Shown: piece after piece, positions 43,806-62,459 of the stretch
Numbering within the stretch: the first letter of the stretch is position 1
How the letters are laid out: every line of letters starts with the position of its first letter
Source of the DNA: Candidatus Brocadiia bacterium
Lineage (GTDB): Bacteria > Planctomycetota > Brocadiia > SM23-32
Direction: 5' to 3'
NCBI GenBank assembly: GCA_046538485.1
Contig: JBKHIT010000010.1
Location: 40,568 to 104,567, forward strand
DNA: 64,000 bases
The notes under the pieces: model-generated
Told to the model about the DNA's origin: nothing
Databases searched by the model: none
What the model saw: only the letters and a program-made list of their open reading frames with translations
Position numbers and translations under genes: made by a program

Positions 43806-44891
43806 TCATTGCTTTTCGTTTCGAACAACAACCCGCGGCTTCACAATTTCCACAGTATCTCCGATATCCTGTCCCGCCAGCGCTTTCTGAAGCATTCTGT
43901 GGGCGCGCACGGCGAGTTCCTGCAATTGCAAATTGACACTTGTAAAGGGAGGTATACCGACCTGGCTCCAGGGGGTATCGTAGAAACCTGCAAATTCTAC
44001 TTCATCCGCAAGTTCCGGGTGGTCTTGCCGGAGAAGACGCTGTGTGGTAAAGGATATGACGTCCAGTGTAGAAAAAACGACCGTAGGGTGCTTGTCCTGC
44101 TGGAAAGATGAAAGTATTTCTTCTTCATTGAGTCGAGGCAGAACCTCCACACTATGGGGCACACTCACGGGCTGAAACTCTCCTCCCAGCTTTCTCCATT
44201 CGTAGATGAAGGCCTCTCGAGGCTGCAAGGGATCAAAAAGGCCGTCTCCCGATGAGGTTTCCTCGAGATCTTCCGAAACGGACCCATATCCGGCCGGTGC
44301 CATGACCAGCGCCCGCCGGTGGCCCCGCTGGAACAGATAGCGCGCGAGCTCACGGGCCCCGGCTTCGTAATCCGAAAGCACTCTCATCATCCCCGGCAAC
44401 TCCGGCCCCTGCCACTCTGCAATGCCCACTATGATTTTATTGGCAAACAATTCGGATTCGAGGATAGAATACGGGAACCCTCCGGAACCCCGCACAATAA
44501 AAGCCTGCACCTCGGAGCGACCCAACCGCATCAATTGTTGCCGTCCGTCCTCATCATCCGCATCGAAGAAAATGGGGATCCGTTCGTCGCTCTGCACCAT
44601 TGTTCCCAGTAAATCTGCCAGCTCGCCCCAGACGTGTTTACCGGCACCGAGTCCGACGGCAATGGTGCGAGAAAGTGTCACATGGGGAAGATCTTCAGTT
44701 ACAAACACTTCACCTTTCTCGTTGATCTCCACATATCCGAGTTGCTCCAATCGCACAATAGCCTCGCCGACCGGCCCGGAAGTCGTCCCAAATCGACGAG
44801 CCAGCTCCCCAACAGAGGGCAAACGCGCTCCACTGCTTCGCTTGCCCGCCACGATTTCAGCACGGATTGTCTCACAAATATGTTCTTCCAT
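43806..44891 (-). CDS. GntR-type HTH regulator with LacI-like ligand-binding domain (paralog 1)
   Basis: G.RLPSVGELARRFGTT wHTH; RVLSDYEAGA...GHRR...AGFYDTPWS..PPFTSV. Confidence 0.88.
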   Translation of the reverse strand: MEEHICETIRAEIVAGKRSSGARLPSVGELARRFGTTSGPVGEAIVRLEQLGYVEINEKGEVFVTEDLPHVTLSRTIAVGLGAGKHVWGELADLLGTMVQSDERIPIFFDADDEDGRQQLMRLGRSEVQAFIVRGSGGFPYSILESELFANKIIVGIAEWQGPELPGMMRVLSDYEAGARELARYLFQRGHRRALVMAPAGYGSVSEDLEETSSGDGLFDPLQPREAFIYEWRKLGGEFQPVSVPHSVEVLPRLNEEEILSSFQQDKHPTVVFSTLDVISFTTQRLLRQDHPELADEVEFAGFYDTPWSQVGIPPFTSVNLQLQELAVRAHRMLQKALAGQDIGDTVEIVKPRVVVRNEKQ

Positions 44892-45100: not shown

Positions 45101-46183
45101 TCAATTGCCCTGCTTACGAATGACAAGCCTGGGTTTCACAACTTCCAGTTTCTGCCGCACCTCTTCCCCGTTCAACGCTTTCTGGAGCATTCGATGCGCC
45201 CGAACAGCAAGCTCTTCCAGCCTCAAATTGACGCTTGTGAAAGGCGGATGGCCTGCCCTGCTCCAGGGAGAATCGTAAAAACCCGCGAAATATATCTCTT
45301 CAAAAATTTCCGGTCGTTGTTCACGAACCCAACGTTGTATGGCAAAAGATAAAACATCCATCGTGCTGAAGACCGCCGGACGCTCAGAATCGCCTCCGAA
45401 ACAACGCCGATAGGCATCCTCAGGAACGGAGGGTAAGACCTCCATACCCAGTTCCACAATCAGGGTTTCATATTCACCACCCAGCCGTTTCCATTCGTCA
45501 AGGAGCACTTTTCCTGGTCGACGAGGAACAAATTTCTGGTTCTCATCCGCATCGTCACCCAACACCGGCTGGAAATGATGTTCACCGGGCGCTACTGCCA
45601 GCAGACGCCGGTGGCCTCTATTGAACAAATGGCGCGCGAGAAGCCGCGCCCCCGCTTCGTAATCGGATAGCACACGCAACATGCCCGGCAGAACAGGCCC
45701 TTCCCAATCCGCAATACCCAGAATAATTTTATCGCTGAACAAATCATTTTGAAGAATCCTGTACGGAAACCCTCGAGTGCCCCTTATCACAAATGCCTCA
45801 ACCTGAGAACCTCCCAGCCGTTCTAATTGCTGGCGCCCCTCCTGGTCCTCAACATCGAACACCACGGGCAGACGTTCGTCTTCCTGGAACATGGCCGCGA
45901 GAAGTTCTGCAAGATCACCCCAGACGTGACGGCTCCTTCCCAAACCCACAGCGACCGTATGCGAAAGCGTCAGGTCCGGTGGTGTCTGAACAAGATACGT
46001 GCCATCTTCCCCTTCAGGTTCCAAATAGTTGAGTCTTTCAAGCTTCTCGAGAGATTCTATGACTTCATCCTCCGTCGTTCCAAAACGACGCGCCAGGATT
46101 TCCACAGACGGAAGCCGCGATCCGGGGTTTCTTTCTCCCCCGGTGATTTCGTTCCGAATTGTCTGGACAATATGTTGCTTCAT
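45101..46183 (-). CDS. GntR-type HTH regulator with LacI-like ligand-binding domain (paralog 2)
   Basis: Colinear and highly similar to 43806-44891. Confidence 0.88.
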   Translation of the reverse strand: MKQHIVQTIRNEITGGERNPGSRLPSVEILARRFGTTEDEVIESLEKLERLNYLEPEGEDGTYLVQTPPDLTLSHTVAVGLGRSRHVWGDLAELLAAMFQEDERLPVVFDVEDQEGRQQLERLGGSQVEAFVIRGTRGFPYRILQNDLFSDKIILGIADWEGPVLPGMLRVLSDYEAGARLLARHLFNRGHRRLLAVAPGEHHFQPVLGDDADENQKFVPRRPGKVLLDEWKRLGGEYETLIVELGMEVLPSVPEDAYRRCFGGDSERPAVFSTMDVLSFAIQRWVREQRPEIFEEIYFAGFYDSPWSRAGHPPFTSVNLRLEELAVRAHRMLQKALNGEEVRQKLEVVKPRLVIRKQGN

Positions 46184-47967: not shown

Positions 47968-50900
47968 TTACTCCACCTTTCGGGAAACATCTTCCAGAAC
48001 CGGCTCAAACGGCCGTTCCCACCCGAGCGGGAAGACCATATCTTTGACGACCAGATCGTGTTCTCCCGCGGGGACTGTTAGACCAATCAAATTCGTGCGC
48101 GTCCATCGGCCGAAACCGCTGGCCGGCCAGTCAGTCCAACAGGGCATCCACTCTTTCCCATCGACCCAATACTGGGGACGGCGGATAAAATCGGGTCTGG
48201 TCACATGGAGCACGCGTTCCCGGCCTTCGGTATGAATTTGGATTGTTTTTCCGTCCAGACTGGCTTCGAAAGGTCCTTCTCCGTAAACCAAAACGCCGTG
48301 CCCCAGACCAACCGATTTGTGGTCTCCCTTGCCATTCGATCTGACTTCGAACATGTTTCTTTTAAGTTTTTTCCGGCCCACCACACGTTCGAATGGCGCT
48401 TCCCCTTCGTAAATATGTTCTTTGTAGCCGATCTTGCCTTCCCCGGCTGTTATCGAAAACACGATTCTGTCCCGGAAAATGCGAACTGATCCCGTGCGCG
48501 CGGTGAACACTACATCTTCTTTCTTGAAATCCAGCTTCCTGTCGCTGATAAAATTGTAATCCTTGAATTTATCCGCCCACACCTTTATGCAACCTCCCCC
48601 GATTTTTTGAAAAACAGGAAGCTTCTCACCGCTTTCATACGGCCAGACGACATAAAAATAATCCCGGCCCGGTTGCCCGACCGCTTCGACGATCGTTTTG
48701 GTTTCCGGTTTTAAATTTTCCCCAAATCCCAACCCTGGCAAATCCGTATTGTGCGGCATTCTGATATTCACCGTAAATGTGAGGCGCGCACGCCACGGCA
48801 ACTCTTGCTTCCCCGAAAACCAAAAATGAAGTCCGGCCCCATGGCCACTGTCCATCTCCACACGGCGACCGGAAACCGTTTTGAGTTTGCTCACATCGGG
48901 AACCTTGTCGTGGGGCGTAGATTTCGGATTGAGCTTTGTGCCGTCCACTTTAATGTGATCGGCCTCGCCCAGATTCAACCATGTCCACCACGTACGATCG
49001 CTGTCGGGATTACCGGGGAATGTATCTCGCATGACAAAATAACTGGCCAGCTCTGGCTCAGAGCCCTTCACAAACAGAACGTGGCGCCGCCAATGACGCT
49101 CCTTTTTATCTTCGTAGAGTTCCGGCGGATAAAAACGGTCCGCCATCGCGTAATCCACGTTATCGCCGAATCCGTAATCCCGCACTGCGGCGTCAACGCG
49201 CCCGAAGATTTCTTTTTTGTCGTGTTTCACCAGCTTGACCTGGTTGTGATAGATCGCGTTGTTGGCACTGATGCAGGCAGGGCCATATGCGTAACCCGTC
49301 CCCGGGGAAAGTGGAGCCCCCTTCCCGTAGATGATGACATTGAAGTAATCGGGGTCCCAGTGTGACCAATTCATACCCGCTCGGAATAGCATCGCCGTCT
49401 CGTGCGGAGTATTCGCATGATTCCGAAACATCACGCCGTAGGTCGGGAAAAACTCTGTTTGCAGTGGCTTTTCACGCGGAGGAATAGCAGGCCGGAAATT
49501 GAACGCATTGAAAGGGGAATTTCCTCTGAATTTTGCCACGCCGTTGGCCCCGACGCATTCCTGGTGCATGTAACGCAGATAACCGGCCAGCTCTTCGTCA
49601 TCACCCGCAGCCGCCCGCATTGCAAGCCCAAATATGGGTGTGACCCGGTCCCCGCTGTTGCCCATACCGGGAATAATACGGAGGTTTCCGAAACGCGGAT
49701 CCTGCATTGTAAGATTCGCCAGATAGCGCAAAGTATCGCCATGGTAATCGGATTCCGTCAGATTAACTGTTCCGGTATTACGCAGAATATTGATCCCCGC
49801 ATCGAGAAATCGGGTCGGTCCGTATAGTTGATAATTCGGGCACGCGACCCACGTGCCATCAGGGGCTGTCTGCGTGGCCAGTTTGAAACGGGTGTAACGC
49901 TGCAACCGGTCCATCCAGTAATCATAGCGCGGATGATCGGGAATCTGCGAAGCAAAATACCCCAGCGCCAGCGTTCGGTTGATCGTCATATTGTTGTTAC
50001 CCAGATGAACACCGGCGCCCCGCGGATTGAAATCGGGATCCGACAGCAGATATGACCACAAAGCAAGATAACGACGGATCTCATCCCGCATCTTTTCAGG
50101 CAAATCCGGACAGGCCAGAGCGTCCTCCGCCAGATGTGCTCTCTTCAGCTGCCCCGCCTGGCGGTAATGTGAGAGACCTGTGACATGCCACTGACTCTTT
50201 TTTCGGCGGATCCAACCCAAAAATTGTTTCCCATGCCGGACAGCGTCCTCCGTTTGCCCGCTGAAAACATAATAACTTTGCAGGACGTCACGATCCGGAT
50301 TTTTCTCAATTGATTTTCCCAATTCCCTGACGATCTCGGGCGTTATAAAGGCACGGGGATAAGTTTTCGCCGGAGATCTCCTTTGCCGCCAATCGAGCTG
50401 CCATTCTTTATACCGGTCGAGACCGATATGTCCGAAACGCCACTGTGCCCTGTGCAACTTGTCTCCGAAATAAAGGCCCCAAACGCGCCGGGCGTAACTT
50501 TTTTTCAAATCCCGGTCATGCTCGTGCGTTGAGAATGGCGATCTCTCATCGGCTACATCGTATTGCCACCAAATCCAGCGGGCGTCGAGGGGGAGTCCGA
50601 CTGAAACCCCTTTGCCTTTCTGGAACCAGGCGTTCAGGGCCATTGTTCGGCGCCAGGATCCAACATGCAAAGGGATAAGTCCGACGCGTTGCGGGTCGTC
50701 TGTTTCGCCATTTGTCAGTTGAATACCGCCTTTCAAACCACCCCATTTGCCACCCGGAACGATGCGATCAAGCCGGAACATACCTTTAACAGGCACAATG
50801 GGCGGCGGAGCCGTGCCGGTCCCGCCAAAGGATTCCGGCTTAAAATGCGCTTTGCGTTTCTTCTCAATATGCTTTTTGAAATCGTACAGCCCCGTTTTCA

Positions 50901-51765
50901 CCGATGTCTCGCCCGCCTGCTGCACGTAACCAACCGTCCCGGGCGACCAGCCCTCGTTGAGATCGAGCAGGAGAAAATTCGCATTGTTTTTCTTCAATAC
51001 CCCCGCGTCCAGTTCCTCGGTCACGACTGCTACCGGCATGCCTGGAGACATCTGCAGACGCCACACGTACCGGCCCCGGGGAGCAAAATGGTAACGGGCC
51101 TCGTACTCAAAACATGCGGGCCCTTTCCGCAGGACCGTGATCGCCCCAAAGGTAATTTTCCATTCCTTGAGAACAAATCGGGCCCCACCCATCCACTCCC
51201 CGCCTTTCGGCCGCCAGGCCAAAATCGGCGGGATCATCTTCTCGCCAGAGGCCGGCTTGTCAAACTGTATCGATCTCGGCTGTGGTATCCGCAAGGCAAA
51301 AAACTCGTTGCTTACTTCCAAACATTCTCCTTGCCTCTCCACATTGAGTGTGGTGTTTTCGCCTCGCCTGTCCTTTTCAGATTTCTGGAGTCGATAAACC
51401 GTTTGAGTCCCCTGCGCAGCCTCCGCAACGAAACAAAGAATCTCATCTTTAATCTGAAAAGGAACCGCCTTGTCATTTTGATCCAGAAGAACGAGTGGAT
51501 CTTTTTTCTTAAACCATTTCTTCAGACGAAAATGCACGAGTTCAGGTCCCCAGTCCCTGTAGCCGTAATCCCTGAAGACAATCCGCCCATCCTTCGGTAT
51601 CACTGAAAGGGTATCAGCAGCATTGGCGCTCCCGACCCCGAAGATCCCCCACGCCAGAGCAAACAACCATCCGGCAAAAAGCACCTGATATGGGCAGTGC
51701 AAATATCTCAAAATCCAGCCCTCTCTTTTGAAAAAGCGATCCAGGAATGTTTTTTTGTCGCTCAA
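47968..51765 (-). CDS. Large secreted heparinase II/III-like polysaccharide lyase (paralog 1)
   Basis: YPRAFIT, helical region with HLGNNNM, GVMFRN...SHWDPD.FNVIIYGKGAPL, HNQV, WRRHVLF. Confidence 0.6.
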   Translation of the reverse strand: MSDKKTFLDRFFKREGWILRYLHCPYQVLFAGWLFALAWGIFGVGSANAADTLSVIPKDGRIVFRDYGYRDWGPELVHFRLKKWFKKKDPLVLLDQNDKAVPFQIKDEILCFVAEAAQGTQTVYRLQKSEKDRRGENTTLNVERQGECLEVSNEFFALRIPQPRSIQFDKPASGEKMIPPILAWRPKGGEWMGGARFVLKEWKITFGAITVLRKGPACFEYEARYHFAPRGRYVWRLQMSPGMPVAVVTEELDAGVLKKNNANFLLLDLNEGWSPGTVGYVQQAGETSVKTGLYDFKKHIEKKRKAHFKPESFGGTGTAPPPIVPVKGMFRLDRIVPGGKWGGLKGGIQLTNGETDDPQRVGLIPLHVGSWRRTMALNAWFQKGKGVSVGLPLDARWIWWQYDVADERSPFSTHEHDRDLKKSYARRVWGLYFGDKLHRAQWRFGHIGLDRYKEWQLDWRQRRSPAKTYPRAFITPEIVRELGKSIEKNPDRDVLQSYYVFSGQTEDAVRHGKQFLGWIRRKKSQWHVTGLSHYRQAGQLKRAHLAEDALACPDLPEKMRDEIRRYLALWSYLLSDPDFNPRGAGVHLGNNNMTINRTLALGYFASQIPDHPRYDYWMDRLQRYTRFKLATQTAPDGTWVACPNYQLYGPTRFLDAGINILRNTGTVNLTESDYHGDTLRYLANLTMQDPRFGNLRIIPGMGNSGDRVTPIFGLAMRAAAGDDEELAGYLRYMHQECVGANGVAKFRGNSPFNAFNFRPAIPPREKPLQTEFFPTYGVMFRNHANTPHETAMLFRAGMNWSHWDPDYFNVIIYGKGAPLSPGTGYAYGPACISANNAIYHNQVKLVKHDKKEIFGRVDAAVRDYGFGDNVDYAMADRFYPPELYEDKKERHWRRHVLFVKGSEPELASYFVMRDTFPGNPDSDRTWWTWLNLGEADHIKVDGTKLNPKSTPHDKVPDVSKLKTVSGRRVEMDSGHGAGLHFWFSGKQELPWRARLTFTVNIRMPHNTDLPGLGFGENLKPETKTIVEAVGQPGRDYFYVVWPYESGEKLPVFQKIGGGCIKVWADKFKDYNFISDRKLDFKKEDVVFTARTGSVRIFRDRIVFSITAGEGKIGYKEHIYEGEAPFERVVGRKKLKRNMFEVRSNGKGDHKSVGLGHGVLVYGEGPFEASLDGKTIQIHTEGRERVLHVTRPDFIRRPQYWVDGKEWMPCWTDWPASGFGRWTRTNLIGLTVPAGEHDLVVKDMVFPLGWERPFEPVLEDVSRKVE

Positions 51766-51852: not shown

Positions 51853-53049
51853 TCAGCGGTAATTTCGTTTCGACACGTAAAGCAGGAGACCGGCAGCTTT
51901 GTGCGGATGGCTGTAAGTGCATCCAAGTCCAATAAATACATTACCATTCACCACCACCATCGACGAGGCGCGTGTCGGGGAATACAGATGGAAAAGCGGC
52001 GTAAAGTCTTTCCCGTTCTCCGTGCGGAAGATTTCAATCCGATATCGCCTCTGACCTTTTCCTTTCTTCCGGCGGGTATTCGCCAGCACGTAGGCCGTTC
52101 CTTTTGAAACCGTCACGTCATCCGGGAGAACGCTAAGATCGCAATGGGTAACGTGAAGTTCAGCCCCCTCCCCCTCCATCGCTTCCGCGCGGAACAGGCC
52201 CAGCCCTCCGGTATGATCATTCCATGAACTTTTGCCGCGTCCAAGCCCGATGTAGAGAACCGTGTCCTCATCCAGGTTCACAGGACTTTTAGCGTAGGAT
52301 TGCTCCGTGTACCCGGAGTACACATCGGGAATTTTGAGGAGGCCTTCCCCCTTGGATCCCCTTCCCCATGTGTCCATGCGTGTATTGACAAAAGTGTCGC
52401 CATTATAGTGTTTGATCCAGCCTTCATAACCGGTCATGTAGAGCTCTCCCCCGCATTCAAATAACGTTACAGTCCGTATCTTATCAAGCGCTTTTCCGCA
52501 GGAGCTCCATGTATTACCACGATCCTCAGAAACAACGACCTCTCCCTGCCAGCGCGCGATAGCCACAAACAGCTTTTCGCCATATCGACAAACATCGAAC
52601 ACGTGGGCACCGTGCTGTTCTCCTTTTTGAGGAACCAGGATTTTATCCCATTGGCCCCGGCGTTGTTGAACATAGATGGCCGTTCGGCCACTCCCGGTTG
52701 GATCAATGCCGGGGAAACACAACCGATCCCAAATCACACAATATTTACTGATCATCTCCTCTTTAACGGTGCCCTCCGATCCAAACTGACCACTCCTCAT
52801 ATCATAATAATAGATCGGTGTCGGGCCGGTATTAATCGTAGCATCCCCGGACCCCAGATAAATACGCCGGCCAAAAACCGCCATATCGTGAACGGATCGA
52901 GCGTGAAGCCGTTTGCCCCCTTTATCGGTATACTTATCCCCCACGGCCGATCCCAGAACTTTCAAACGGTTGGTCACATCCGGCGAATCAGCCAGAACAG
53001 CCGGACAGAGACCAAACAACAACATCAATATCACAATCCTCCTCAACAT
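51853..53049 (-). CDS. Secreted beta-propeller protein with Asp-box/BNR-like motifs
   Basis: Signal peptide; SEDRGNTW and TENGKDF Asp-box-like motifs; AAGGAG RBS. Confidence 0.65.
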   Translation of the reverse strand: MLRRIVILMLLFGLCPAVLADSPDVTNRLKVLGSAVGDKYTDKGGKRLHARSVHDMAVFGRRIYLGSGDATINTGPTPIYYYDMRSGQFGSEGTVKEEMISKYCVIWDRLCFPGIDPTGSGRTAIYVQQRRGQWDKILVPQKGEQHGAHVFDVCRYGEKLFVAIARWQGEVVVSEDRGNTWSSCGKALDKIRTVTLFECGGELYMTGYEGWIKHYNGDTFVNTRMDTWGRGSKGEGLLKIPDVYSGYTEQSYAKSPVNLDEDTVLYIGLGRGKSSWNDHTGGLGLFRAEAMEGEGAELHVTHCDLSVLPDDVTVSKGTAYVLANTRRKKGKGQRRYRIEIFRTENGKDFTPLFHLYSPTRASSMVVVNGNVFIGLGCTYSHPHKAAGLLLYVSKRNYR

Positions 53050-53213
53050 TTCCCCATTCTCCTTCAAATTATAAGCCGAGTAATTGTACCGTGTAATCGG
53101 CCGTGTCCAATAGATGGTAAAGCTGGAACACTTCGGGAAAACAGAACACTTTCATCCTGATTATAAAGACACATCGGCGGGGACACAACACATTTGAGAG
53201 GCAAGCAATCCTG

Positions 53214-56200
53214 TCAGTTGTGGATAATTGGCGGTTGTTTCAGAATGCGAATTTCAAAATCGTGCTCACCCCCCAGAACGGGAACGATTAAAGTCTCTCC
53301 CGAGGTCCCCGGCGCATAGGTCTGTCCGTCAATCACCAGCGTCGGCAGACGATCCAGGGCTGCCGGACGTGTCAGGTACAAAAACCGATCCTGGCCGGCG
53401 GTTCGTCCCGTAATGCAGTTTTCATCGAATGTAAGCGCGTAGGGCCCGCCTGCCCCCCAGGACTTAAGTTTCTTGTAGCTTACGCTCCTGCCTTTCTCCA
53501 GCACAAGACTCACGGCCCCCTTCTCGCGCACAATAACCCCACCTCGTCGACCTTCAAATCGCACGCCCTGGCCTTCCCAGGTAGAGAGAGTGTTGAAATC
53601 AAAACCGTAAGCAAAACCTCCGTCGAACTCATAACACATAACCCCATCCTGAACTCGCTGAGTTTGCGATCCTTGCGGGGCGGAAAACTTGATGTCATGC
53701 TCGGGCGCGGCCACTCTAATAGTTTCGGAACCCAGCTCATCTTTTGGGACCACCCGTATCGCGGGGATTTCGGCACGGAGCTTCGCGCCCTTGTAAGCAA
53801 TCACTCCGCCGCCTTCGGCGATTACGAGATGAACTTCCTCCGGGTACACGCGCACCGCTCCCGCGACGCCCTGAAAATCCACCTCAGGACCGTCATATTT
53901 CATCGGTTCGTGGTCGACAAACACATAATCGGTGGCTTCTTCTGTGCTTATTCGTGCTGCTCCCGGGCCAAGAACTTCATATTGAGGTCCGGATTCGCCA
54001 TCTGCCCTGGGATATAACACGGTGACTATATCCTGTCCGGCTTCAACCGGGCCCACGGCATTGACCGTAATCGTCTCTTTAAAACCGGCCTTGTTCCTGT
54101 TCTTCTTTGATTCCTGTGTACCATGGGCTTTCCGCCAGTTTTTAGCCACAGCGTGATACATTGGACCGTGTCCGGATTCCTCCCGGGATTCAACCTCGAT
54201 GGAATCCGGCTGGAGAAAGTGGACGTCAAGATAGTGACCAAAAGGGCTCTTATAAAGCAACTCGTTTTGTGTCGTTCGAACATTTGCTTTGGGCCCCAGT
54301 GTTCGAAGATACCACCATTTTTTCTGGAGTTCTTTGCCTTTCTTACGCGGAGAAAAACTGTCCCGGAACACAAAATAATTCGGCCCGGTAGCCTTTTTCC
54401 CTTTCAAGAAGATAATCTGGCGGGCCCATCGTTGCGGACCGTAATCCCCCAGACCGCGGATATAATCCACGCTTTCGCTGAAAAATTTCCGATGCACCTG
54501 TGAGGCAGGCCCACCTCCCGGCCAACCACCTGTATTGCTCTTTCGCCCGAATCGCACCCGGCTGTGCCATCCAAACTGATTGTATAACTTTTTGTAGTTT
54601 TTGAGCTGCTGAATAGCATAAGCTCGCAGGCTCAGATTGATCAGGGGAGCGCCTTTGGAAAAAAGTGCGAAATCTCCCTGGTTTGCGTCACAATGGCTGG
54701 TCAGATATCCCTGTCGATATGAGAGGTATGTCTCGTTGGGGTCGCCAGCATGCGCCCTTAAAACAGCGCCGAACCCCGGCAAACGTTTGCTTTTCAAATA
54801 TCCCGGGACCGAACCGGAATTCCCTTCTTTTGCCAGATCAGCGTGGACAGTAGCCCACTTCCCGAAATTGCCGCTATGGTGCGTTTTGAGGGGACGGTCC
54901 AACGCCTCCCACGCCCATGCCAGCGCCTGCGCCAACCGGGGATTGTTCCGTCGAGCCAGTGCCGCCGCCACAAGCCAATGCGCGCCGACTTTGACGCCTT
55001 CATGCCCCCATGCCGGGAGCACTCGCGTTCCGAACCGTGGATCCTTGGGAGACAGGAGCTGCAGTGTAAACCGGGCGGGAAGGGTGCAAAGCCGACTCGT
55101 ACGATCATCCAGTCTCCCGCCTTTTTCTAATACCATACCTGCTTGCATTAAATGGGGCGCGCTTGCAGCGAAATACGTAATAAGTTCACTCCAGGCACCT
55201 TCCGGGGCGACGTTCATAGCCAGCTTATATTTCTCAAATTCTCCGATCATGTCCAGCCAATCCTGTGCTCGGGGATGCTCGGGGATCAGAGAAGCCGTAA
55301 AGGCCAGCGCCAGCGTCCGATTGATCGCCATATTGGGAGTCCCAAGATGGATCATTGATCCTCGCGGGTTGAAATCGGGCTCGGCCAGCGCATGACTGAC
55401 TGCTGCAATATAGCGGCGAAGCCGTTGACGTCTCTCGGGGCTGAGATTGTCGCTGGAAAGCAGTTCGTCGGCCCAGGGTGTCCACTGAGCGGCCATCTGG
55501 CTCTGCCGGTAGCTGCTTTGATAAGGGGTGGGGTCTTTATCGCTCCGCACTGCTTCTCGCGCTTGTCCCACCGGACCGTGCCACTGGCTTCTGCCGGTTA
55601 ATCGCCCCCACAGATTATTACGTTTTTTCTCACTATCCTGGAGGTATAACGATTCCTTCAGCCAGTTACCGGCATTATGATCCGTCAGTCTTTCCTGAAA
55701 ACGGTCGATGTCCTCCCGGCTGAAAAGCAACCGGGGATATGACACGGGCTCCTCGGCCTGCCAGTCGAGAACCCAATCCTTGTAATCATCCAGATTGATA
55801 TATCCCTCGTATCGGCGAAAATCAAACAGCGTATCGTGGAACTGCAGGGGACCGCCCACCAGCGCCCACTGCCGACGCACATAACTCAGCGGTTTATCTG
55901 GATCATATTCGCCGGTCTGCAGGAGGGTATTAGGATGCTTTTCTGCCATAAGCGGCCAGTTCAGATTGACATCCGGCACATTATGGGTGAACAGCATCGT
56001 GGTTCGGTAAGAGTTATGACCACTTCGCCACGTGCCGGCATGAATTGGCACCACGGCTAAGAAAGGGACTCCCGCCTCCTTCCCGGAGGCTTTTTCCAGG
56101 TCCTCTTCCTGAACCAGACCGAAATATTGTGCTGAGGGAGCCCAGGGAAACCAGCAGGCCACGTTAAAAACTTTTTCGTACCTTTTCTTATAGCGAATTT

Positions 56201-57209
56201 TTTTGCTGCCAAACGTGCGCCCCTTGTATGAATCCACGTCATATCCCAGATCCGCCAGTTTTTCCCGGAACGAACTCACTTTTCCCTTGTGGCCTCCCCG
56301 GCGCGAGACATGCCAGTATGCGATATCCGGCTGCCATCCATTCTCTTTCCAGGCACTGGAAAACGACGTCATAAGTCGCCATGTATATCCCGATCCCGTC
56401 CGTCGCAGGTCAAACTGTTCGTCGACATTGACCCAGGGGGCTCCAGCCCTCAGGCGGACCGTCATTTGATACCATCCGCCATTCGTAAATGCATAACGGA
56501 CTCGAGCCTCGGCAAAAACGGGGCCCTGCTCGGTTACCTCGCATGTATAACTGGTTACGCCCGGAGTATTATCGGGATTTTTCGACCAGAAATAACTACC
56601 TCCCACCCATTGGCCATCCGCCAGACGCAATCCCTGGAAAGGGCCGGGGATAATGCCGCTCTCAACCTCACGGCCGTAGCGGCGAACCCGCTCGCCATGG
56701 CCGCCTTTACCGAAAGACAGCGGCTCTTCAAACTCATACGTGCCCGCTTCTGGCATCTGGAACGCGACCAGAGAATTCGAAAGCGTAAGGTAATCATCCC
56801 CCTCCGAAACATCCAGCGATCCTGCCTTCGCGTTGCGCTCCCCCTTGACCAATCGATAATCATACGTTCCTTTTTCTTCAAGCTCGGCCATAAAAGAGAT
56901 TCGAGCCCGGGCAATCGACCCGTCGTCGTGAGTTTTAACCGCCCATAGCTGAAAAGGTTTCTCCCGGCCACCGTCCCCAACCAGACGCATGTTGTCGGCG
57001 TGGGCGACCCCGGCGTCGAACTCCACACGGTAGGTTACCATGGTCTCAGGCCACTCAAGTTTCAGCACCTCCTTTTCCTGAAAACGGGCAAGCAAATCTG
57101 CATCTCCATCAGCATTCTTCGCTGCCCCCCACAGCGAGTTCGCCAAAAGGAGGGATACAAACACACAGAAGACAGAGAACATTTGCAGCGATTGGCGCGG
57201 AGTCGACAT
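53214..57209 (-). CDS. Large secreted heparinase II/III-like polysaccharide lyase (paralog 2)
   Basis: Signal peptide; YPRLLF, DFNPRGSMIHLGTPNMAINRTLAL, GFGAVLR...SHCDANQGDF.LFSKGAPL, WARQIIF; AGGAGG RBS. Confidence 0.6.
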   Translation of the reverse strand: MSTPRQSLQMFSVFCVFVSLLLANSLWGAAKNADGDADLLARFQEKEVLKLEWPETMVTYRVEFDAGVAHADNMRLVGDGGREKPFQLWAVKTHDDGSIARARISFMAELEEKGTYDYRLVKGERNAKAGSLDVSEGDDYLTLSNSLVAFQMPEAGTYEFEEPLSFGKGGHGERVRRYGREVESGIIPGPFQGLRLADGQWVGGSYFWSKNPDNTPGVTSYTCEVTEQGPVFAEARVRYAFTNGGWYQMTVRLRAGAPWVNVDEQFDLRRTGSGYTWRLMTSFSSAWKENGWQPDIAYWHVSRRGGHKGKVSSFREKLADLGYDVDSYKGRTFGSKKIRYKKRYEKVFNVACWFPWAPSAQYFGLVQEEDLEKASGKEAGVPFLAVVPIHAGTWRSGHNSYRTTMLFTHNVPDVNLNWPLMAEKHPNTLLQTGEYDPDKPLSYVRRQWALVGGPLQFHDTLFDFRRYEGYINLDDYKDWVLDWQAEEPVSYPRLLFSREDIDRFQERLTDHNAGNWLKESLYLQDSEKKRNNLWGRLTGRSQWHGPVGQAREAVRSDKDPTPYQSSYRQSQMAAQWTPWADELLSSDNLSPERRQRLRRYIAAVSHALAEPDFNPRGSMIHLGTPNMAINRTLALAFTASLIPEHPRAQDWLDMIGEFEKYKLAMNVAPEGAWSELITYFAASAPHLMQAGMVLEKGGRLDDRTSRLCTLPARFTLQLLSPKDPRFGTRVLPAWGHEGVKVGAHWLVAAALARRNNPRLAQALAWAWEALDRPLKTHHSGNFGKWATVHADLAKEGNSGSVPGYLKSKRLPGFGAVLRAHAGDPNETYLSYRQGYLTSHCDANQGDFALFSKGAPLINLSLRAYAIQQLKNYKKLYNQFGWHSRVRFGRKSNTGGWPGGGPASQVHRKFFSESVDYIRGLGDYGPQRWARQIIFLKGKKATGPNYFVFRDSFSPRKKGKELQKKWWYLRTLGPKANVRTTQNELLYKSPFGHYLDVHFLQPDSIEVESREESGHGPMYHAVAKNWRKAHGTQESKKNRNKAGFKETITVNAVGPVEAGQDIVTVLYPRADGESGPQYEVLGPGAARISTEEATDYVFVDHEPMKYDGPEVDFQGVAGAVRVYPEEVHLVIAEGGGVIAYKGAKLRAEIPAIRVVPKDELGSETIRVAAPEHDIKFSAPQGSQTQRVQDGVMCYEFDGGFAYGFDFNTLSTWEGQGVRFEGRRGGVIVREKGAVSLVLEKGRSVSYKKLKSWGAGGPYALTFDENCITGRTAGQDRFLYLTRPAALDRLPTLVIDGQTYAPGTSGETLIVPVLGGEHDFEIRILKQPPIIHN

Positions 57210-57366
57210 CAAGTAAATCCTCCTGCTGAGTCAACGGGATTACAAAAAGTTTCAAGCTGCCTCAATTTTTCTACCGAGATCCTCAACGCATACAGGGAAC
57301 GACCCGATATAACCGGTTTCGGCGACCGGGACGGTAAAAGCTCGAAAAATCAGACGCAAAGTAAAA

Positions 57367-58113
57367 TCACGGCGGAAGGGTGTAATAATATTCGAACCAA
57401 CCGCCATCTTTTGTCGGGATATCTTCCCCCTGAGTCCACTGGCCATGTCCGTCGAGGAAGATCTCGTTGCTGCCCCCAATCAGTTCATGGAACTCAGCCG
57501 GTTCGGGGATAATCCTGTCATTCCATCCCATCCACCCCTTTCCGTTCCTGGGGTGACACAGGCGTGTATTCCCCGGTGTACCGGGATACCATTGGCAAAT
57601 GTCCGTCATCAGCACAATTTTGCTGGGGAACGGGCAACCGGCCGTATCGAGCGTGTATTGGGTCACCTCGTGCCAACCGCTCTCCCCCGCATCGTGAAGA
57701 GCGCCGCTCGGGCCATCGTACCAGTAGCGCCCTTGCCCCCCATACCACAACAAAGAGCCCCAGGTCTTCCAGTCGCTGGCATCGGGCCAACCCGTGCAGG
57801 CAGTCGTATCCACATTCGGACAATTCAGAAGTTGATCGCGGGCACCATAACCACCAGTCAGCACATCCCAGGGCCGCCCCTCAATACACTCCACCGCTCC
57901 AAACCAGCTGCTGTACATGGTCGGGAATTTGCCGTCGGCGTCCAGAGTATAAACGTGCAAAGCCGTAGAAATTTGCCTTTTCCTGGAAAGACAATTCACT
58001 CGCCGTGCCGCGTTCCGGGCGCTCTCCAGCGCCGGCATCAACATAGCCGCAAGGATGGCAATGATGGCGATGACGACCAGCAGCTCTATCAGGGTGAAAC
58101 CTTCGTCTCGCAT
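57367..58113 (-). CDS. Prepilin-type N-terminal cleavage/methylation protein (DUF1559-like)
   Basis: [30 protein letters not shown]-terminal [11 protein letters not shown]. Confidence 0.9.
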
Positions 58114-58158
58114 TTTTTCCTGCTCCTGTCGGAAGCTTTTCTGAAATAAATGAAGGTA

Positions 58159-59013
58159 TCAGTACCCTCCCTCGGGAAACAGATATCCTGAGCTCCTGTA
58201 CCCATACAGTTGACGGTTCGGAATCCAGTATTCATCCATATGATGCTGACCCTTTATGACAAGCCCCGAGTCCATGGGCCAGTAAACCGTGGGAGCGTTA
58301 CCGTGATCATAATTCGGATGCTGAACATAATGGTCCGGCGGCACCATACCCCGATCGACTCTGACCAGATCACGATAGGGATACCACTCCAGCGAACCAT
58401 CGCAACTGGTAACATTGGCACCCTCCCAATCGTGATTGTTGCCCACCGCTTCGAAAAACTGGCTCGTGGGAGGATAGAAGGATGTAAAATCCATGATGAA
58501 AAGTTTCGGACCACAATTCCCGTACTGCCCGACATTCGTCATTCGTGTCGATCCAAACTCCCGGGCATTACTGTAAAGCCCAAAACCATACACTCCGTAA
58601 CTCCCTTGATGGCCCCAATCCCTATCGTCACGCTTCGGAAATTTTGGCTGGCTCGGGCAAAATATCGCGTCACCTTTATTCAGATAAAGCCCTCCGTTGT
58701 AGCGGTCGTGATCGTCCATTCTGACACTGCCATATTCACGCAGAAAATGGCGAAAACTGGAATCTAAAAGCTTCCCATAAATCCGCGAATACTGAATCGT
58801 GTAGACATTTCCGGCGATTGGAAGCCAATCATTAAAATCCAGGGCATATATGGCCGACGCCTGATACAGCTGACGCTGATTCGATGCGCAGGATGCGCGA
58901 TAGGTCTGCTCACGCGCCCGTTCCAGCGCCGGCATCAGCATTGCCGCCAGAATGGCGATGATGGCGATGACGACGAGCAGCTCAATCAATGTAAACCCTT
59001 TTTTGCATCCCAT
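58159..59013 (-). CDS. Prepilin-type N-terminal cleavage/methylation protein (DUF1559-like)
   Basis: [52 protein letters not shown]. Confidence 0.9.
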
Positions 59014-59072
59014 TTTCCGCCTCCTGTCTCTGAGACCAGCCAATAGATACACCGAAGTACGCGCCACGCCAC

Positions 59073-61037
59073 TCAGTGACACGGATTCCCGTTATAAACG
59101 GTCCACGATAGATCCAGAGCGTTCTGGCAAAAATCCTCGTCGCATCGATTGGCCGTGGCTCCCTGATGAACGACATACGGACTGTCCATCAGAAACGATG
59201 CGTTATCGGGGCACCACATAAAACGATTCGGTTTGAAATTCCAGCAGTTCTCCCCCGGAACCCACTCGATATGGTTGTCGTAAAAAAGCGCGTTCATCCC
59301 GCTCGGATCACTCCAGCTATCGTGGTTGCTATATTTGAACTTGTTCCAGTTGATCCAGTTGCCGCCATCGTAACCGTCGCGTTTGGATCTGGACTGATAA
59401 GGAGCGTACCAGTCCCCCGTCACCAGAAAGTTTGTAGCACCGGTAACCAGCGTATCGCGCACGTGCCAGGGCTCATGTTGCCAGTTGTGGCCGCTCGGAT
59501 CCAGATTGCCCCAGTCACCGCCGCCAAAATAATAATAAGTGCCGCAGTAGTTCTCACTATGTTTCAAATTGTCGAGACTTCCGGGATGACCGGACGGGCT
59601 GTAGTCGGGATGGCGCTTCCAGTAGGAGGCCGGGCATATCCGAAGTTCCGGGTTCAGATACCCCTGTGTCATCAGCTCGTCATACTGACCGCCGACAGCG
59701 TCCCTATCCATCGAATAATGCCACGTCCAGACATCCCCTCTCGCCTTATCGGGGATGTATCCGTTGTGGCCGTTGGCATACATCTGCAACGCAAGACCGT
59801 GCTGGCGGAGAATGTTTGTGCAGGAAACGCGTGTTGCCTGAGCGCGGGCACTCTCCAGCGCCGGCATCAGCATAGCCGCCAGGATTGCAATGATCGCGAC
59901 GACAACCAGCAGCTCAATCAGGGTAAACCCACCCGCCGGCGCCGTCACCTCGCCGACTTCCTCGGACCCTTCGGGGACCTCCGGCGGTTGAAAACGAAAG
60001 ACCTCGTCTCGACCATTACCCGGGGACGGCTCACCGATCGTCCGCTCAATCGCTTCTTCAATGACCACACCCCAATCGAGCTCGATTCGGGGACAGGCCG
60101 AGGGCAAATACAGACTGGAGCCTTTATTCACCATGACCGCGATACGGGACGGATCAAGCGCCGGTTCGGGATGTGTCTGCGCTTCCTCAATCGCACCGTA
60201 GGCCGTCATGTCATCCATAATAACCATTCCGTCGGGGGCCGGCTCCACCGCAAAAACCTCGCGGTAAAGCCGGCGTCCCCCCTCGATCGAACTACCCCAC
60301 CCCGCTCGAATCCAGTCGGGACTGACCTCCATCTGAAAAGAACGGCACGAACGCAAAAACGCCTCCCGCACGTCGGCAGATCCCCCCGCGCTCTGCTGAA
60401 CAATACCGATTTTCTGACAGCCCTCCCGCCAGAGCCACCTGACCGCGTCCTCCACGGCCTCACATGCTCTCTTGTGGTCGGGTTCGAGCTGAATGACCGG
60501 GGTGTGCACCCCCGGCAGCTGTTCGTGAACGATCTCGGCGTAAACCGCACCCACCAGCAAAGCATCGATACTTTCGTTCAATAGATCGTCGACAAGCGAC
60601 TCGGGCAGTTGCGCATGACCATCCGAGGGACGAACCGCCATGTATTGACGGTGGTTCAAACCTCGCCGGTCCACGACCTGCATGAATTCATGAGCGATGA
60701 CCCAGCCAAAATTGGCCTGCAGGGGAAGCGAAGGGTCCACAACAGTCAGAAGCCCGATCGTCTGCACGGACCGGTGCTCGAGGACCACCGTGCCCAGACC
60801 CGGTTTACGGCGGACGCGATTCCGTTTCGACAGCAGGCTGAGCGCATCCTGCGCCACCTGGCAGCTCACGCTGAAAAGCTCGGCCATCTCCGCAGTCGGG
60901 GGCAACTTCTGGCCCGGACTCAACTCACCGGCGTCAATCAATCCCCCCAGTTTGCCAGCTATCTGACGCGCCATCGGCAGGCCACTGGACGACTCGCAGC
61001 GCACCCCGCTCAGAATGTCCTTAATCGCTTTCACCAT
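59073..61037 (-). CDS. Fusion of a GntR/LacI-type transcription regulator with a prepilin-type DUF1559-like domain
   Basis: [18 protein letters not shown] wHTH and PBP-like domain, then in frame [26 protein letters not shown] (Phe codon 59927-59925) and NH....[10 protein letters not shown]. Confidence 0.85.
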
Positions 61038-61093
61038 TTGCTTTCCCTGTAGCGCTCTCCTCAAGCGACTTATTATAAACTTCTTCTACAGTT

Positions 61094-61121
61094 ATTATAT
61101 CGACCGTTCCGGGGATGTCAA
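61094..61121 (-). promoter_or_regulatory. Consensus sigma70 promoter of regulator-prepilin operon
   Basis: TTGACA-16 bp-TATAAT on the minus strand. Confidence 0.75.
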
Positions 61122-61412
61122 GGATTTCCCGGGACGAAAATCGGCACTGAAACTGGTCTCTCTCAACCATCCCTCCCCCTGCCACCCGGCTTGTCCGCCT
61201 CGGGCGCCGCCCGTCCCGGGTATATGGCGATTTTTCGCACAAGCAAATTCTTCTTTCACTTGACTTCCAAGCGGAGTCCCCCCATATTGCTCGCTCTGGA
61301 AGACGGGCGGAAGATGTTGTGTGCAGCTCCGCCCGAAGGGAATCCGCATCGGTTCCGGCGATGTCCCAGCCGACTGCGGATCGGAAAAAATCTTAGATGG
61401 GGATCTTGTATC

Positions 61413-62459
61413 ATGTGTACAAGGGTGTGGGTCCGCGGACACCACCGCGGCGTGTCTGATTTTACGGGAAAAAAGAGTAACCGTGCCGCGTTTACTCTCA
61501 TCGAACTTCTTGTCGTCATCGGGATCATCTCGATTCTCTGCGCTATTCTTCTCCCGGCAGTGCAGGCCGCCCGGGGGATTGCACAACAGACAGCCTGCCT
61601 CTCGAACTATCGCTCTTTCGGCGAAGCGATGACGATCTATTCTCTTGAAAACGGCGGCCACCTCCCCGGCCCCAATACGTCCGGAGCTGGCTACGACGGG
61701 ACGAATGTTCCACTGGCACGAGACACGCGGGCCGATTTTCCAACCCAGAATACGGACTGGATTTCGCCCCTTTTCGGCAGCGAGTTCGGCTTTCCTTCCG
61801 AACACGCCACAAGGATGGAAGCTATTCTGGAGAACTCCCTCAGCTGTCCTGCCAACTCTCGGCGCTACGACTACCTGTATCCCGGAATGGGTTTGACGGA
61901 GTGGCATTACGCGAGCTACAACGCTCCCCTCGGTTTCCATGTCCGTCTGGACGGCCGAGCCAACAGCGATCCGACCGATGGCGATGATTCAAGCGTCCGC
62001 TATTATATCGACAGCTACCCGCGAAATTATTCATTCCTTCTCTCTCAGGTCGGACCTGCCGCTCAGAAGGTAAGCGTCTTCGAAGGCGCGCGGTACTGGG
62101 CGTACTGGATGGATTGGCCCGAGGAAGTTTCTTTCGACGGCTGGCCGTACAATGAATACGGCGGCAACTGGATGAATTATGGACCGGTCAGTAACTTCCG
62201 CTGGGACGGAAATCCGCACAAATTCAACATGTTACATAACCCGAGTTATCCGAAAAGACGATCCCTTGAAGGCGCGTATCGTCATGATAAAAACGGTCCC
62301 GCAATGAATTGCTTGTTTTTCGACGGTCATGCGAAATTATTGCACTGGCGCGAGAGTTTGTGCGTCAGCAACTACTTTCCGACCGGTTGCAAAATCGGAG
62401 GAATCTACGGCACCACCCAGATCTACGAAGATCATGCGAACGGAGAGATCCTGGATTAG
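61413..62459 (+). CDS. Prepilin-type N-terminal cleavage/methylation protein (DUF1559-like); start uncertain
   Basis: [51 protein letters not shown]. Confidence 0.88.

What the first reader, a model, noticed from the sequence alone, without database searches (positions are those of the whole stretch)
59073..61037. Transcription regulator encoded as the 'leader peptide' of a prepilin-like protein: possible prepilin-peptidase-released transcription factor
Seen: one uninterrupted ORF encodes a GntR-type winged HTH plus a LacI-like ligand domain (~370 aa), an acidic Pro/Gly linker, then an internal type IV prepilin site [26 protein letters not shown] and a full DUF1559-like domain. It is the first gene after a consensus TTGACA/TATAAT promoter and is followed by two ordinary prepilin paralogs. 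Known: prepilin peptidase (PilD/GspO) cuts at G|F on the cytoplasmic face of the membrane, normally removing a short leader. Inference: here the removed leader would be a whole DNA-binding regulator, tethered to the membrane until processing. That would couple pseudopilin maturation or extracellular sensing to transcription. Uncleaved, it would be a ToxR-like one-component transmembrane sensor. Caveat: a possible internal GTG start (GAGGA..GTG ACG GCG CCG) lies just before the site, so a chance loss of a stop codon is an alternative.
Basis: partly seen in the sequence, partly recalled or inferred. Interest (0 to 1): 0.85.

Follow-up and report, generated by a model that had tools for sequence, protein, structure and literature searches.

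The report
Sugar regulator gene fused to pilin gene
One real gene joins a complete sugar-sensing DNA-binding regulator to a pilin-like membrane protein, most likely a young fusion of two neighbouring genes whose products the cell's pilin-cutting enzyme could separate again.

Summary
Window 59073-61037 (-) is one open 654-codon frame: a GntR HTH, an AraR-like ligand domain, a 20-residue acidic Pro/Gly linker, an internal prepilin site (GG|FTLIELL) and a pilin-fold domain. It follows a 12/12 promoter and precedes two prepilin genes.

It is not an assembly error. A contig from a different study, 96% identical, spans the junction with no indel and no stop among the changes listed.

The fusion looks young and sporadic:
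- All 8 closest regulator clusters are stand-alone (364-378 aa).
- The in-genome paralogue is two genes.
- 19 of the genome's 35 other such regulators sit directly in front of a prepilin gene, some with ATGA overlaps.
- An internal GTG with GAGGAA, and a GTGA motif, mark the old pilin start.

At least 16 analogous fusions exist in public data, and I found no conserved fused clade. This scan noted the same module earlier in other genomes, and I found no paper on it.

Best reading (0.5): a self-resolving polyprotein. Prepilin peptidase (a bifunctional PilD is encoded) cuts at G370|F371 and gives back a repressor and a pseudopilin.

Signal-controlled release remains possible (about 0.2) and is untested.

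The parts
61094..61121 (-). Sigma-70-type promoter, TTGACA-16 nt-TATAAT
   Evidence: 12 of 12 consensus matches. It is the only perfect site among the 6 found in 56900-61500; shuffles gave a mean of 2.8 sites.
59073..61037 (-). Fused ORF of 654 codons plus a TGA stop (ATG at 61037; an in-frame TTG lies at 61064)
   Evidence: A contig of run X3 (a different study) covers 59155-60940 with 70 substitutions and 0 gaps.
60783..60971 (-). GntR-type winged helix-turn-helix, residues 23-85
   Evidence: PF00392, E 6.6e-12, 45.3 bits against a cut-off of 27.
59988..60770 (-). AraR/LacI-like periplasmic-binding-protein-fold effector domain, about residues 90-350
   Evidence: PF13377 is below its cut-off (16.7 bits). 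The Atlas structural neighbours are 10 of 10 GntR + Peripla_BP clusters. The region aligns fully with 8 stand-alone regulators up to F349.
59928..59987 (-). Acidic Pro/Gly linker, residues 351-370 ([20 protein letters not shown]). It replaces the variable 11-25 aa C-terminal tail of the stand-alone homologues.
   Evidence: In the X3 strain the only changes here are E356E and G357Q.
59958..59963 (-). GAGGAA, a Shine-Dalgarno-like sequence 10 nt upstream of the internal GTG
   Evidence: Read from the sequence. No difference is listed here in the X3 strain.
59946..59948 (-). Internal GTG (V364). Starting here would give a 7-residue leader, MTAPAGG|F. It lies inside a GTGA motif whose TGA closes the +1 frame.
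   Evidence: The +1 frame is open for at least 57 codons upstream and ends at this TGA.
59862..59933 (-). Internal class III (prepilin) signal peptide, residues 369-392. The predicted cut is between G370 (59928-59930) and F371 (59925-59927), with E375 at +5.
   Evidence: PF07963, 28.3 bits. TIGR02532, 26.1 bits against a cut-off of 16.3.
59076..59861 (-). Pilin-like globular part, residues 393-654, related to DUF1559
   Evidence: The closest relative is the stand-alone 297-aa prepilin P0214, 50% identity. In the X3 strain 19 changed codons are synonymous and 4 non-synonymous from residue 371 on.
58159..59013 (-). Downstream prepilin paralogue 1 ([13 protein letters not shown]), with AGGAGG in front of its ATG
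57367..58113 (-). Downstream prepilin paralogue 2 ([12 protein letters not shown]), DUF1559 just above its cut-off
   Evidence: (PF07596, 24.1 bits against 23.3).
61191..62459 (+). Divergently transcribed prepilin ORF (…[12 protein letters not shown] codon at 61491). The true start is probably internal.

Best explanation
This is a real but evolutionarily young fusion of a tightly coupled gene pair.

Origin: the ancestor was an AraR-type repressor (GntR HTH plus a sugar-binding domain), followed directly by the first DUF1559-type pseudopilin gene of a glycan operon. The repressor lost its stop, most simply by a 1-nt frameshift in its tail upstream of a GTGA start/stop overlap.

Fate of the long product (inferred): it inserts in the inner membrane with the regulator in the cytoplasm and the pilin head outside. 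The cell's PilD-type prepilin peptidase then cuts it constitutively at G370|F371. That yields a soluble 370-aa repressor and a mature pseudopilin, so the gene acts as a self-resolving polyprotein. Extra pseudopilin may come from the retained internal GTG.

Shown: the ORF, its domains, its presence in two strains, the unfused relatives, the coupled pairs, and the peptidase genes.
Inferred: membrane insertion, cleavage, internal initiation, and near-neutrality.
For: ORF and domains.

Not an artefact:
- An X3 contig from a different study, 1786 nt, covers 59155-60940 with 70 substitutions and 0 gaps.
- An X2 contig matches 59921-60453 with 0 differences.
- Of the 33 changed codons listed, 22 are synonymous, 11 non-synonymous and none is a stop.

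The ancestral state was two genes:
- 8 of 8 closest regulator clusters are 364-378 aa.
- The paralogue at C19:410-1528 is followed 28 nt later by a separate prepilin gene.
- 19 of 35 other Peripla_BP_3 regulators in the genome have a same-strand prepilin motif 25-352 nt after their stop. Three of these pairs have ATGA overlaps, and 5 of the 19 are one stop-codon change away from a fused frame.

The junction keeps GTG, GAGGAA and a GTGA motif.

Other fusions also keep a start. Six of the 16 others have a Met 5-13 residues before F+1. The DNA of P0123 shows AGGAAAG-N6-ATG.

Cleavage is plausible. G-1, F+1 and E+5 are present, and a bifunctional PilD lies at C20:73905-74819. A review states that leaders vary in length, end in Gly or Ala, and are cut on the cytoplasmic face (PMC10191384, passages read).
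Against: - No product has been observed. There is no RNA or protein evidence, and no prepilin peptidase has been shown to accept a 370-residue folded leader.
- The frameshift origin is an inference from one GTGA motif and an open alternative frame in G+C-rich DNA.
- The fused frame has persisted through about 4% nucleotide divergence, and similar fusions recur in at least 16 other proteins. That could mean selection for the fusion rather than neutrality.
- In the X3 strain the listed changes in the regulator's last 70 residues are mostly non-synonymous (7 of 10 codons). This could also mean the regulator half is decaying. Changes further upstream were not displayed.
Confidence: 0.5

Rival explanations
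1. Signal-controlled, membrane-tethered transcription factor. The regulator is held at the membrane by the prepilin segment and is freed by prepilin peptidase only when processing is permitted. This would couple pseudopilus assembly or glycan sensing outside the cell to operon transcription.
For: - The G|F site is intact and peptidase genes are present.
- The fusion is kept in two strains from two studies.
- Fusions of regulators to prepilins recur. Nine LacI/GntR-type fusions and one ECF-sigma fusion were among 91 long hits. Six GntR + PBP + N_methyl fusions were among the 150 best representatives.
- The regulator/prepilin pairing is very frequent in this genome, which suggests a functional link.
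Against: - Prepilin peptidases are not known to be regulated (recalled). In the review passages I read, processing needs no other protein.
- 8 of 8 closest relatives and 19 of 19 other pairs in this genome are unfused.
- The internal start is retained.
- I found no conserved fused clade. The fused regulators share at most 37% identity, and P0230-like regulators in sampled genomes are not fused to a prepilin in any of 6 places (5 stand alone, 1 runs into a different gene).
Confidence: 0.2
2. Permanently membrane-anchored one-component regulator with ToxR-like topology. The prepilin segment serves only as a transmembrane anchor, and the pilin head acts as the periplasmic sensor.
For: - The topology fits: an N-terminal DNA-binding part, one hydrophobic helix, and a C-terminal exported domain.
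- 5 of 17 fusions have S, S, L, R or P at -1, which should not be cleaved (Gly/Ala rule from PMC10191384).
Against: - This protein has Gly at -1, like 76 of the genome's 133 prepilin motifs, and a PilD is present, so cleavage is expected.
- The regulator already carries its own cytoplasmic ligand domain.
Confidence: 0.1
3. A fusion in decay. The stop loss mis-targets and inactivates the regulator. The pseudopilin is made from the internal GTG, and the long product is unstable or useless.
For: - The internal GTG and GAGGAA are present.
- 7 of the 10 changed codons listed in residues 289-357 are non-synonymous, against 4 of 23 in the pilin part.
- A paralogous regulator exists.
Against: - The regulator keeps every one of the 45 invariant columns of its family alignment.
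- The non-synonymous changes lie in the region that also varies between homologues.
- A perfect promoter still drives the gene.
Confidence: 0.15
4. An assembly or sequencing artefact joined two genes.
For: The genome is a 143-contig metagenome assembly. The prepilin N-terminus is a repeat at which other contigs break.
Against: An independent contig from another study bridges the junction with no gaps. A single source contig covers 58951-61200 with 0 differences.
Confidence: 0.03

Closest known systems
AraR subfamily of GntR regulators (GntR wHTH + LacI/GalR-type sugar-binding domain; the Bacillus subtilis AraR name is recalled)
   Same: Residues 1-350 have this architecture. The GntR HTH scores above its cut-off. 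Structural neighbours are GntR + Peripla_BP clusters, one of them auto-named 'Arabinose metabolism transcriptional repressor'. The gene is first in a putative glycan operon behind a strong promoter.
   Different: The protein continues for 284 more residues into a prepilin. All 8 close relatives stop 11-25 residues after the conserved F349.
Type IV pilins / T2SS pseudopilins (GspG/PulG) and the DUF1559 (PF07596) paralogue family of PVC bacteria
   Same: It has a class III signal peptide with G|F and E+5 and a hydrophobic alpha1 helix, and the model has the lollipop fold. It is one of 133 such motifs in this genome.
   Different: The 'leader' is 370 residues of folded protein, not a short hydrophilic peptide. 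The DUF1559 score is below its cut-off.
ToxR/CadC-type bitopic membrane transcription regulators (recalled)
   Same: If uncleaved, it would have the same topology: a cytoplasmic DNA-binding N-terminus, one transmembrane helix, and a periplasmic C-terminal domain.
   Different: The HTH is GntR-type, not OmpR-type. It carries its own cytoplasmic ligand domain, and its transmembrane segment is a prepilin peptidase substrate motif.
Proteolytically released membrane-tethered factors (regulated intramembrane proteolysis, e.g. the RsiV/sigma-V paper listed; RseA recalled)
   Same: The concept is the same: a transcription factor held at the membrane and freed by a membrane protease.
   Different: Here the protease would be an aspartic prepilin peptidase cutting at the cytoplasmic face. 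No regulated step is known or shown.
Other regulator-prepilin fusions in public data (e.g. P0123 from a Lentisphaeria MAG, P0125, P0032, P0075, P0230, P0240)
   Same: They have a LacI or GntR HTH, a Peripla_BP domain, a linker, FTLIELL and a pilin domain, and are 558-719 aa long.
   Different: The regulator subfamilies differ (at most 37% identity, mostly below 30%). The -1 residues are mixed, and none is an orthologue of this gene.

Membership tests
GntR family, AraR-like subfamily | N-terminal GntR winged HTH | tested here: met
   PF00392, residues 23-85, 45.3 bits against a cut-off of 27.
GntR family, AraR-like subfamily | C-terminal LacI/GalR-type periplasmic-binding-protein-fold effector domain | tested here: inconclusive
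   PF13377 scores 16.7 bits, below its cut-off of 26.5. However, 10 of 10 Atlas structural neighbour clusters are GntR + Peripla_BP (TM by target 0.56-0.67), and the paralogue family aligns over the full length.
GntR family, AraR-like subfamily | Sugar-responsive DNA binding at an operator | not testable with these tools
   No inverted repeat of 8 nt or more was found in 61030-61200. No binding data exist.
Type IV pilin / pseudopilin | Class III signal peptide: leader ending in Gly/Ala, then about 20 hydrophobic residues, often with Glu at +5 | tested here: met
   [26 protein letters not shown]. PF07963 scores 28.3 bits and TIGR02532 scores 26.1 bits, both above their cut-offs.
Type IV pilin / pseudopilin | The signal peptide sits at the protein's N-terminus behind a short hydrophilic leader | tested here: not met
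   The motif starts at residue 369 of the ORF. The feature would be met only if translation starts at the internal GTG.
Type IV pilin / pseudopilin | Lollipop fold: a long alpha1 helix packed on a beta-sheet head | tested here: met
   Model pLDDT 79.9, helix 2-53 plus strands. The top 9 VIA rows are pilins or pseudopilins at a modest Z of 4.2-5.7. Foldseek found none at E <= 0.001.
Type IV pilin / pseudopilin | Processing by prepilin peptidase and assembly by a T4P/T2SS machine | not testable with these tools
   Only the genes are present: PilD, 12 GspF-domain matches and 3 secretin matches.
DUF1559 (PF07596, SBP_bac_10) | Match to the family model above its gathering score | tested here: not met
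   18.9 bits against a cut-off of 23.3, covering only model positions 2-34 of 268. No H-X9-DG family hit in NCBIfam (the family label is recalled). The gene is related to the family but is not a scored member.
ToxR-like membrane-bound regulators | OmpR/PhoB-type winged HTH activator domain | tested here: not met
   The only HTH family found is GntR.

The most novel reading that the evidence does not exclude
The fusion is functional. A sugar-binding repressor is made as the giant 'leader' of a pseudopilin, held at the membrane, and released by prepilin peptidase (or retained when processing is blocked). Operon transcription would then report on pseudopilin insertion or assembly. That would make prepilin peptidase a transcription-factor-releasing protease. 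It would also link the large, unexplained DUF1559 family mechanistically to its adjacent regulators.
Probability: 0.2. Interest if true: 0.85.

Novelty: new variant of a known kind. Interest (0 to 1): 0.55.

Why it matters
Three points follow if the protein is made and cut.
1. Prepilin peptidase would accept a folded 40-kDa leader, which would widen its known substrate range.
2. Recurrent fusion of regulator and pseudopilin genes is 'Rosetta-stone' evidence that the two work together. So are the ATGA-coupled pairs, present at 19 of the genome's 35 other regulators of this type. This gives a concrete handle on the function of the very large, uncharacterised DUF1559 family that heads glycan operons in PVC bacteria.
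3. If release were conditional, it would be a new kind of membrane-to-DNA signalling.

If it is only a tolerated read-through, it is still a clear example of how a site-specific signal peptidase can make a gene fusion harmless.

Tried and rejected
- RNA evidence: no RNA holder was listed for 59500-60500, so expression could not be assessed.
- Run X2 does not bridge 59775-59920, where the repeated prepilin N-terminus breaks its contigs. Run X5 covers only parts of the stretch.
- Only 40 of 108 differences were displayed. dN/dS for most of the regulator therefore could not be computed.
I could not count how many samples hold each fusion.
- The search for related loci with P0123 in genome contigs returned only its own Lentisphaeria MAG, so that fusion offers no test of conservation.
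- Family search (31 genomes): only one further genome has a homologue of this regulator, at 43% identity and running to the end of the locus fetched.
- Order-wide Peripla_BP_3 search (32 genomes): 39 matches outside G000, and none has an open frame of 550 aa or more. The largest are 519 and 530 aa, and I did not examine them.
- Seven loci with P0230-like or orthologous regulators (L014, L018-L023) had no prepilin motif within the 1.5-kb flanks. The pairing is therefore not universal.
- No inverted-repeat operator was found at the promoter.
- The Atlas feature search gave no usable hit.
- Foldseek against PDB gave nothing at E <= 0.001.
- Literature: six searches found no description of a regulator-prepilin fusion. 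Subscription journals and the supplements of PMC13274419 were not seen.
- Complex prediction was not used, because the report claims no binding.

Full report
**1. The observation**

The minus strand of 59073-61064 is one uninterrupted frame. It is 654 codons from the ATG at 61037. Pfam places four matches on it:
- a GntR winged HTH at residues 23-85 (45.3 bits, cut-off 27);
- an N_methyl prepilin motif at 369-391 (28.3 bits, cut-off 21.2);
- a sub-threshold Peripla_BP_3 match at 200-289 (16.7 bits against 26.5);
- a sub-threshold DUF1559 match at 396-429 (18.9 bits against 23.3, model positions 2-34 of 268).

The ligand domain is nevertheless real. All 10 structural neighbour clusters listed for the Atlas's model are GntR + Peripla_BP regulators of 363-416 aa. 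The first 349 residues also align end to end with eight stand-alone regulators.

I modelled the last 284 residues with 32 stand-alone prepilin relatives. The model (pLDDT 79.9) has a 52-residue N-terminal helix and a beta-sheet head. The nine best VIA-align rows are all pilins or pseudopilins: PilA4, ComP, PilV, EpsG, PilE, a Shewanella pilin, PilX, PulG and TTHA1222. Their Z of 4.2-5.7 is modest, and Foldseek gave nothing at E <= 0.001.

- The linker is [20 protein letters not shown] and the site is [26 protein letters not shown].
- A 12-of-12 TTGACA-16-TATAAT promoter lies at 61121..61094.
- Two ordinary prepilin genes follow, at 58159-59013 and 57367-58113.
- A further prepilin ORF diverges upstream (61191-62459, +).
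- The internal GTG is at 59946-59948, with GAGGAA 10 nt before it.

**2. Real DNA, not an artefact**

The window is part of a 143-contig, 88%-complete metagenome genome. Five public runs hold the stretch, and I laid four of them.
- The probable source run has one contig covering 58951-61200 with no difference.
- A second sample of the same study matches 59921-60453 exactly, but breaks at the repeated prepilin N-terminus.
- A run from a different study has a 1786-nt contig covering 59155-60940, with 70 substitutions and no gap.

Of the 33 changed codons displayed for that third contig, 22 are synonymous, 11 non-synonymous and none is a stop. From residue 371 on the split is 19 to 4; in residues 289-357 it is 3 to 7. 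The fused frame therefore exists in a second strain about 4% diverged, and the pilin half is under purifying selection in this frame. These are contigs, not reads, and 68 differences were not displayed.

**3. Where it came from**

The eight closest regulator clusters (38-49% identity) are all 364-378 aa. They end 11-25 residues after the conserved F349. One of them is a paralogue in the same genome (C19:410-1528). A separate prepilin gene follows it 28 nt later, and four more follow that.

The genome holds 133 prepilin motifs, with G at -1 in 76 and A in 55. Only the window's motif has more than 150 open codons upstream.

The genome also has 36 Peripla_BP_3 matches. For 19 of the other 35, a same-strand prepilin motif begins 25-352 nt after the regulator's stop. 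Three of these pairs have ATGA start/stop overlaps. Six of the 19 are in the same frame, and 5 of the 19 would fuse after a single change in the stop codon.

Regulator-then-prepilin is thus the standard, often translationally coupled, head of operons in this organism, and fusion is mutationally cheap. At the window's junction the GTG sits in a GTGA. Its TGA closes the +1 frame, which is open for at least 57 codons upstream. A 1-nt frameshift in the regulator's tail, ahead of a GTGA overlap, is the simplest origin. This is inference.

**4. Recurrence elsewhere**

I searched long proteins (509-2000 aa) with the pilin half. Of 91 hits, 9 carry LacI or GntR HTH and/or Peripla_BP domains in front of N_methyl: P0123, P0125, P0032, P0075, P0130, P0132, P0133, P0155 and P0177. 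One more, P0141, is an ECF sigma factor with a multi-pass membrane region and a prepilin.

An exhaustive phmmer search of 1.84 billion representatives listed 6 further GntR + Peripla_BP_3 + N_methyl proteins among its best 150: P0230, P0231, P0235, P0240, P0299 and P0306. Pfam confirmed them, though N_methyl is below its cut-off in 2 of the 6.

Counting the window's own protein, the 17 fusions have these -1 residues: G in 9, A in 3, S in 2, and L, R and P in 1 each. Six of the 16 others keep a Met 5-13 residues before F+1. The DNA of P0123 shows AGGAAAG six bases before that ATG.

The regulator halves are mostly below 30% identical to each other; the best pair, P0230/P0240, reaches 37%. P0230-like regulators in a 401-genome sample of the phylum stand alone in 5 of 6 places. 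In the sixth, the regulator runs in frame into a signal-peptide protein.

I therefore see many independent, probably young fusions and no old fused clade. My sampling is biased towards fused forms and cannot give a true rate.

**5. Mechanism**

According to a review I read in passages (PMC10191384):
- prepilin leaders vary in length and end in Gly or Ala;
- prepilins are inserted by SRP/Sec with the leader in the cytoplasm;
- the peptidase cuts on the cytoplasmic face and needs no other protein.

The genome encodes a bifunctional PilD (A24_N_bact + Peptidase_A24, C20:73905-74819), a second A24 peptidase, 12 GspF-domain matches and 3 secretin matches.

With G-1, F+1 and E+5 intact, the most economical reading is this. 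The long product is inserted N-in/C-out and then cut, which gives back the ancestral repressor and pseudopilin. The fusion would be tolerated because it undoes itself, and the internal GTG may add free pseudopilin. I put this at about 0.5.

The rivals are:
- a permanently tethered ToxR-like regulator (about 0.1);
- a regulator half in decay (about 0.15);
- an artefact (about 0.03).

None of the protein-level steps has been observed.

**6. Relation to what is known, and novelty**

The two halves belong to known kinds: AraR-like GntR regulators, and type IV pilin-like proteins related to DUF1559. Their fusion, with the class III signal peptide internal, is not a defining state of either.

Six full-text searches found no description of it. 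One paper, read in passages, reports 67 PulG-like pseudopilin homologues in a verrucomicrobial genome, one of them inside an alginate-induced gene cluster. It also reports a pseudopilin among the 17 genes over-expressed on alginate (PMC13274419). That fits a role for these proteins in glycan operons.

This scan has noted the same module before on other DNA:
- a GntR/FCD-pseudopilin fusion (e1-1063570);
- an unfused ATGA-coupled pair (e1-1063572);
- pilin-led glycan operons (e1-4581902).

I treat them as leads only, and my own counts agree with them.

I rate the finding a new variant of a known kind, with interest 0.55. It is a real and unusual architecture that gives a testable handle on DUF1559 function and on prepilin-peptidase substrate range. 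In this genome the evidence favours a young, sporadic fusion over an evolved signalling device.

Noticed in passing
G000 genome-wide (e.g. C66:40517, C118:16182, C71:35783, C51:40992, C19:1528): 19 of the 35 other Peripla_BP_3 regulators are followed on the same strand by a prepilin gene within 25-352 nt. Three pairs have ATGA overlaps, and in C51 the prepilin ATG lies inside the end of the upstream gene. This is a conserved, translationally coupled regulator-pseudopilin module.
   Followed up: partly
G000:C51:39292-40992 (L027:293-1990): A 566-aa protein with an N-terminal Sulfatase domain (86 bits) and a partial Peripla_BP_3 domain where an HTH would be expected. It overlaps the start of a prepilin gene ([19 protein letters not shown]). 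It looks like a regulator-type protein whose DNA-binding domain has been replaced by a sulfatase.
   Followed up: partly
L024 (G358:C1:2439031-2443068), minus strand: A GntR/PBP regulator runs in frame, without a stop, into a downstream protein that has its own Met and a signal-peptide-like start. The open frame is 1160 aa. This is a second kind of read-through fusion behind such regulators, in a high-GC genome.
   Followed up: partly
P0141 (951 aa): ECF sigma factor regions 2 and 4, then a long multi-pass hydrophobic region, then an N_methyl prepilin motif (…[11 protein letters not shown]) and a pilin-like domain.
   Followed up: no
P0238 (578 aa) and P0305 (421 aa): Single ORFs that each hold two prepilin motifs in tandem. 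The stretches between the motifs look like frame-shifted or low-complexity sequence. They are probably broken or mis-assembled tandem prepilin genes.
   Followed up: no
window 53214-57212 (-), 51853-53067 (-), 47968-51765 (-), 34341-38447 (+): Large ORFs of 1332, 404, 1265 and 1368 aa with no Pfam family at E <= 0.001. The first three lie directly downstream of the prepilin genes, and the 1332-aa one begins with a signal-peptide-like stretch. They are probably uncharacterised exported glycan-active proteins of the same operon.
   Followed up: no
window 45101-46183 (-) and 43806-44891 (-): Two more GntR + Peripla_BP_3 regulators lie in tandem. Neither is followed by a prepilin motif. They sit next to LarA-like, FAD-oxidoreductase and DegT-aminotransferase genes.
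   Followed up: no
G000 versus its order (32 genomes): G000 has 32 Peripla_BP_3 matches at E <= 1e-5. The 31 other genomes of the order have 0-10 each. The regulator family has expanded strongly in this lineage.
   Followed up: no
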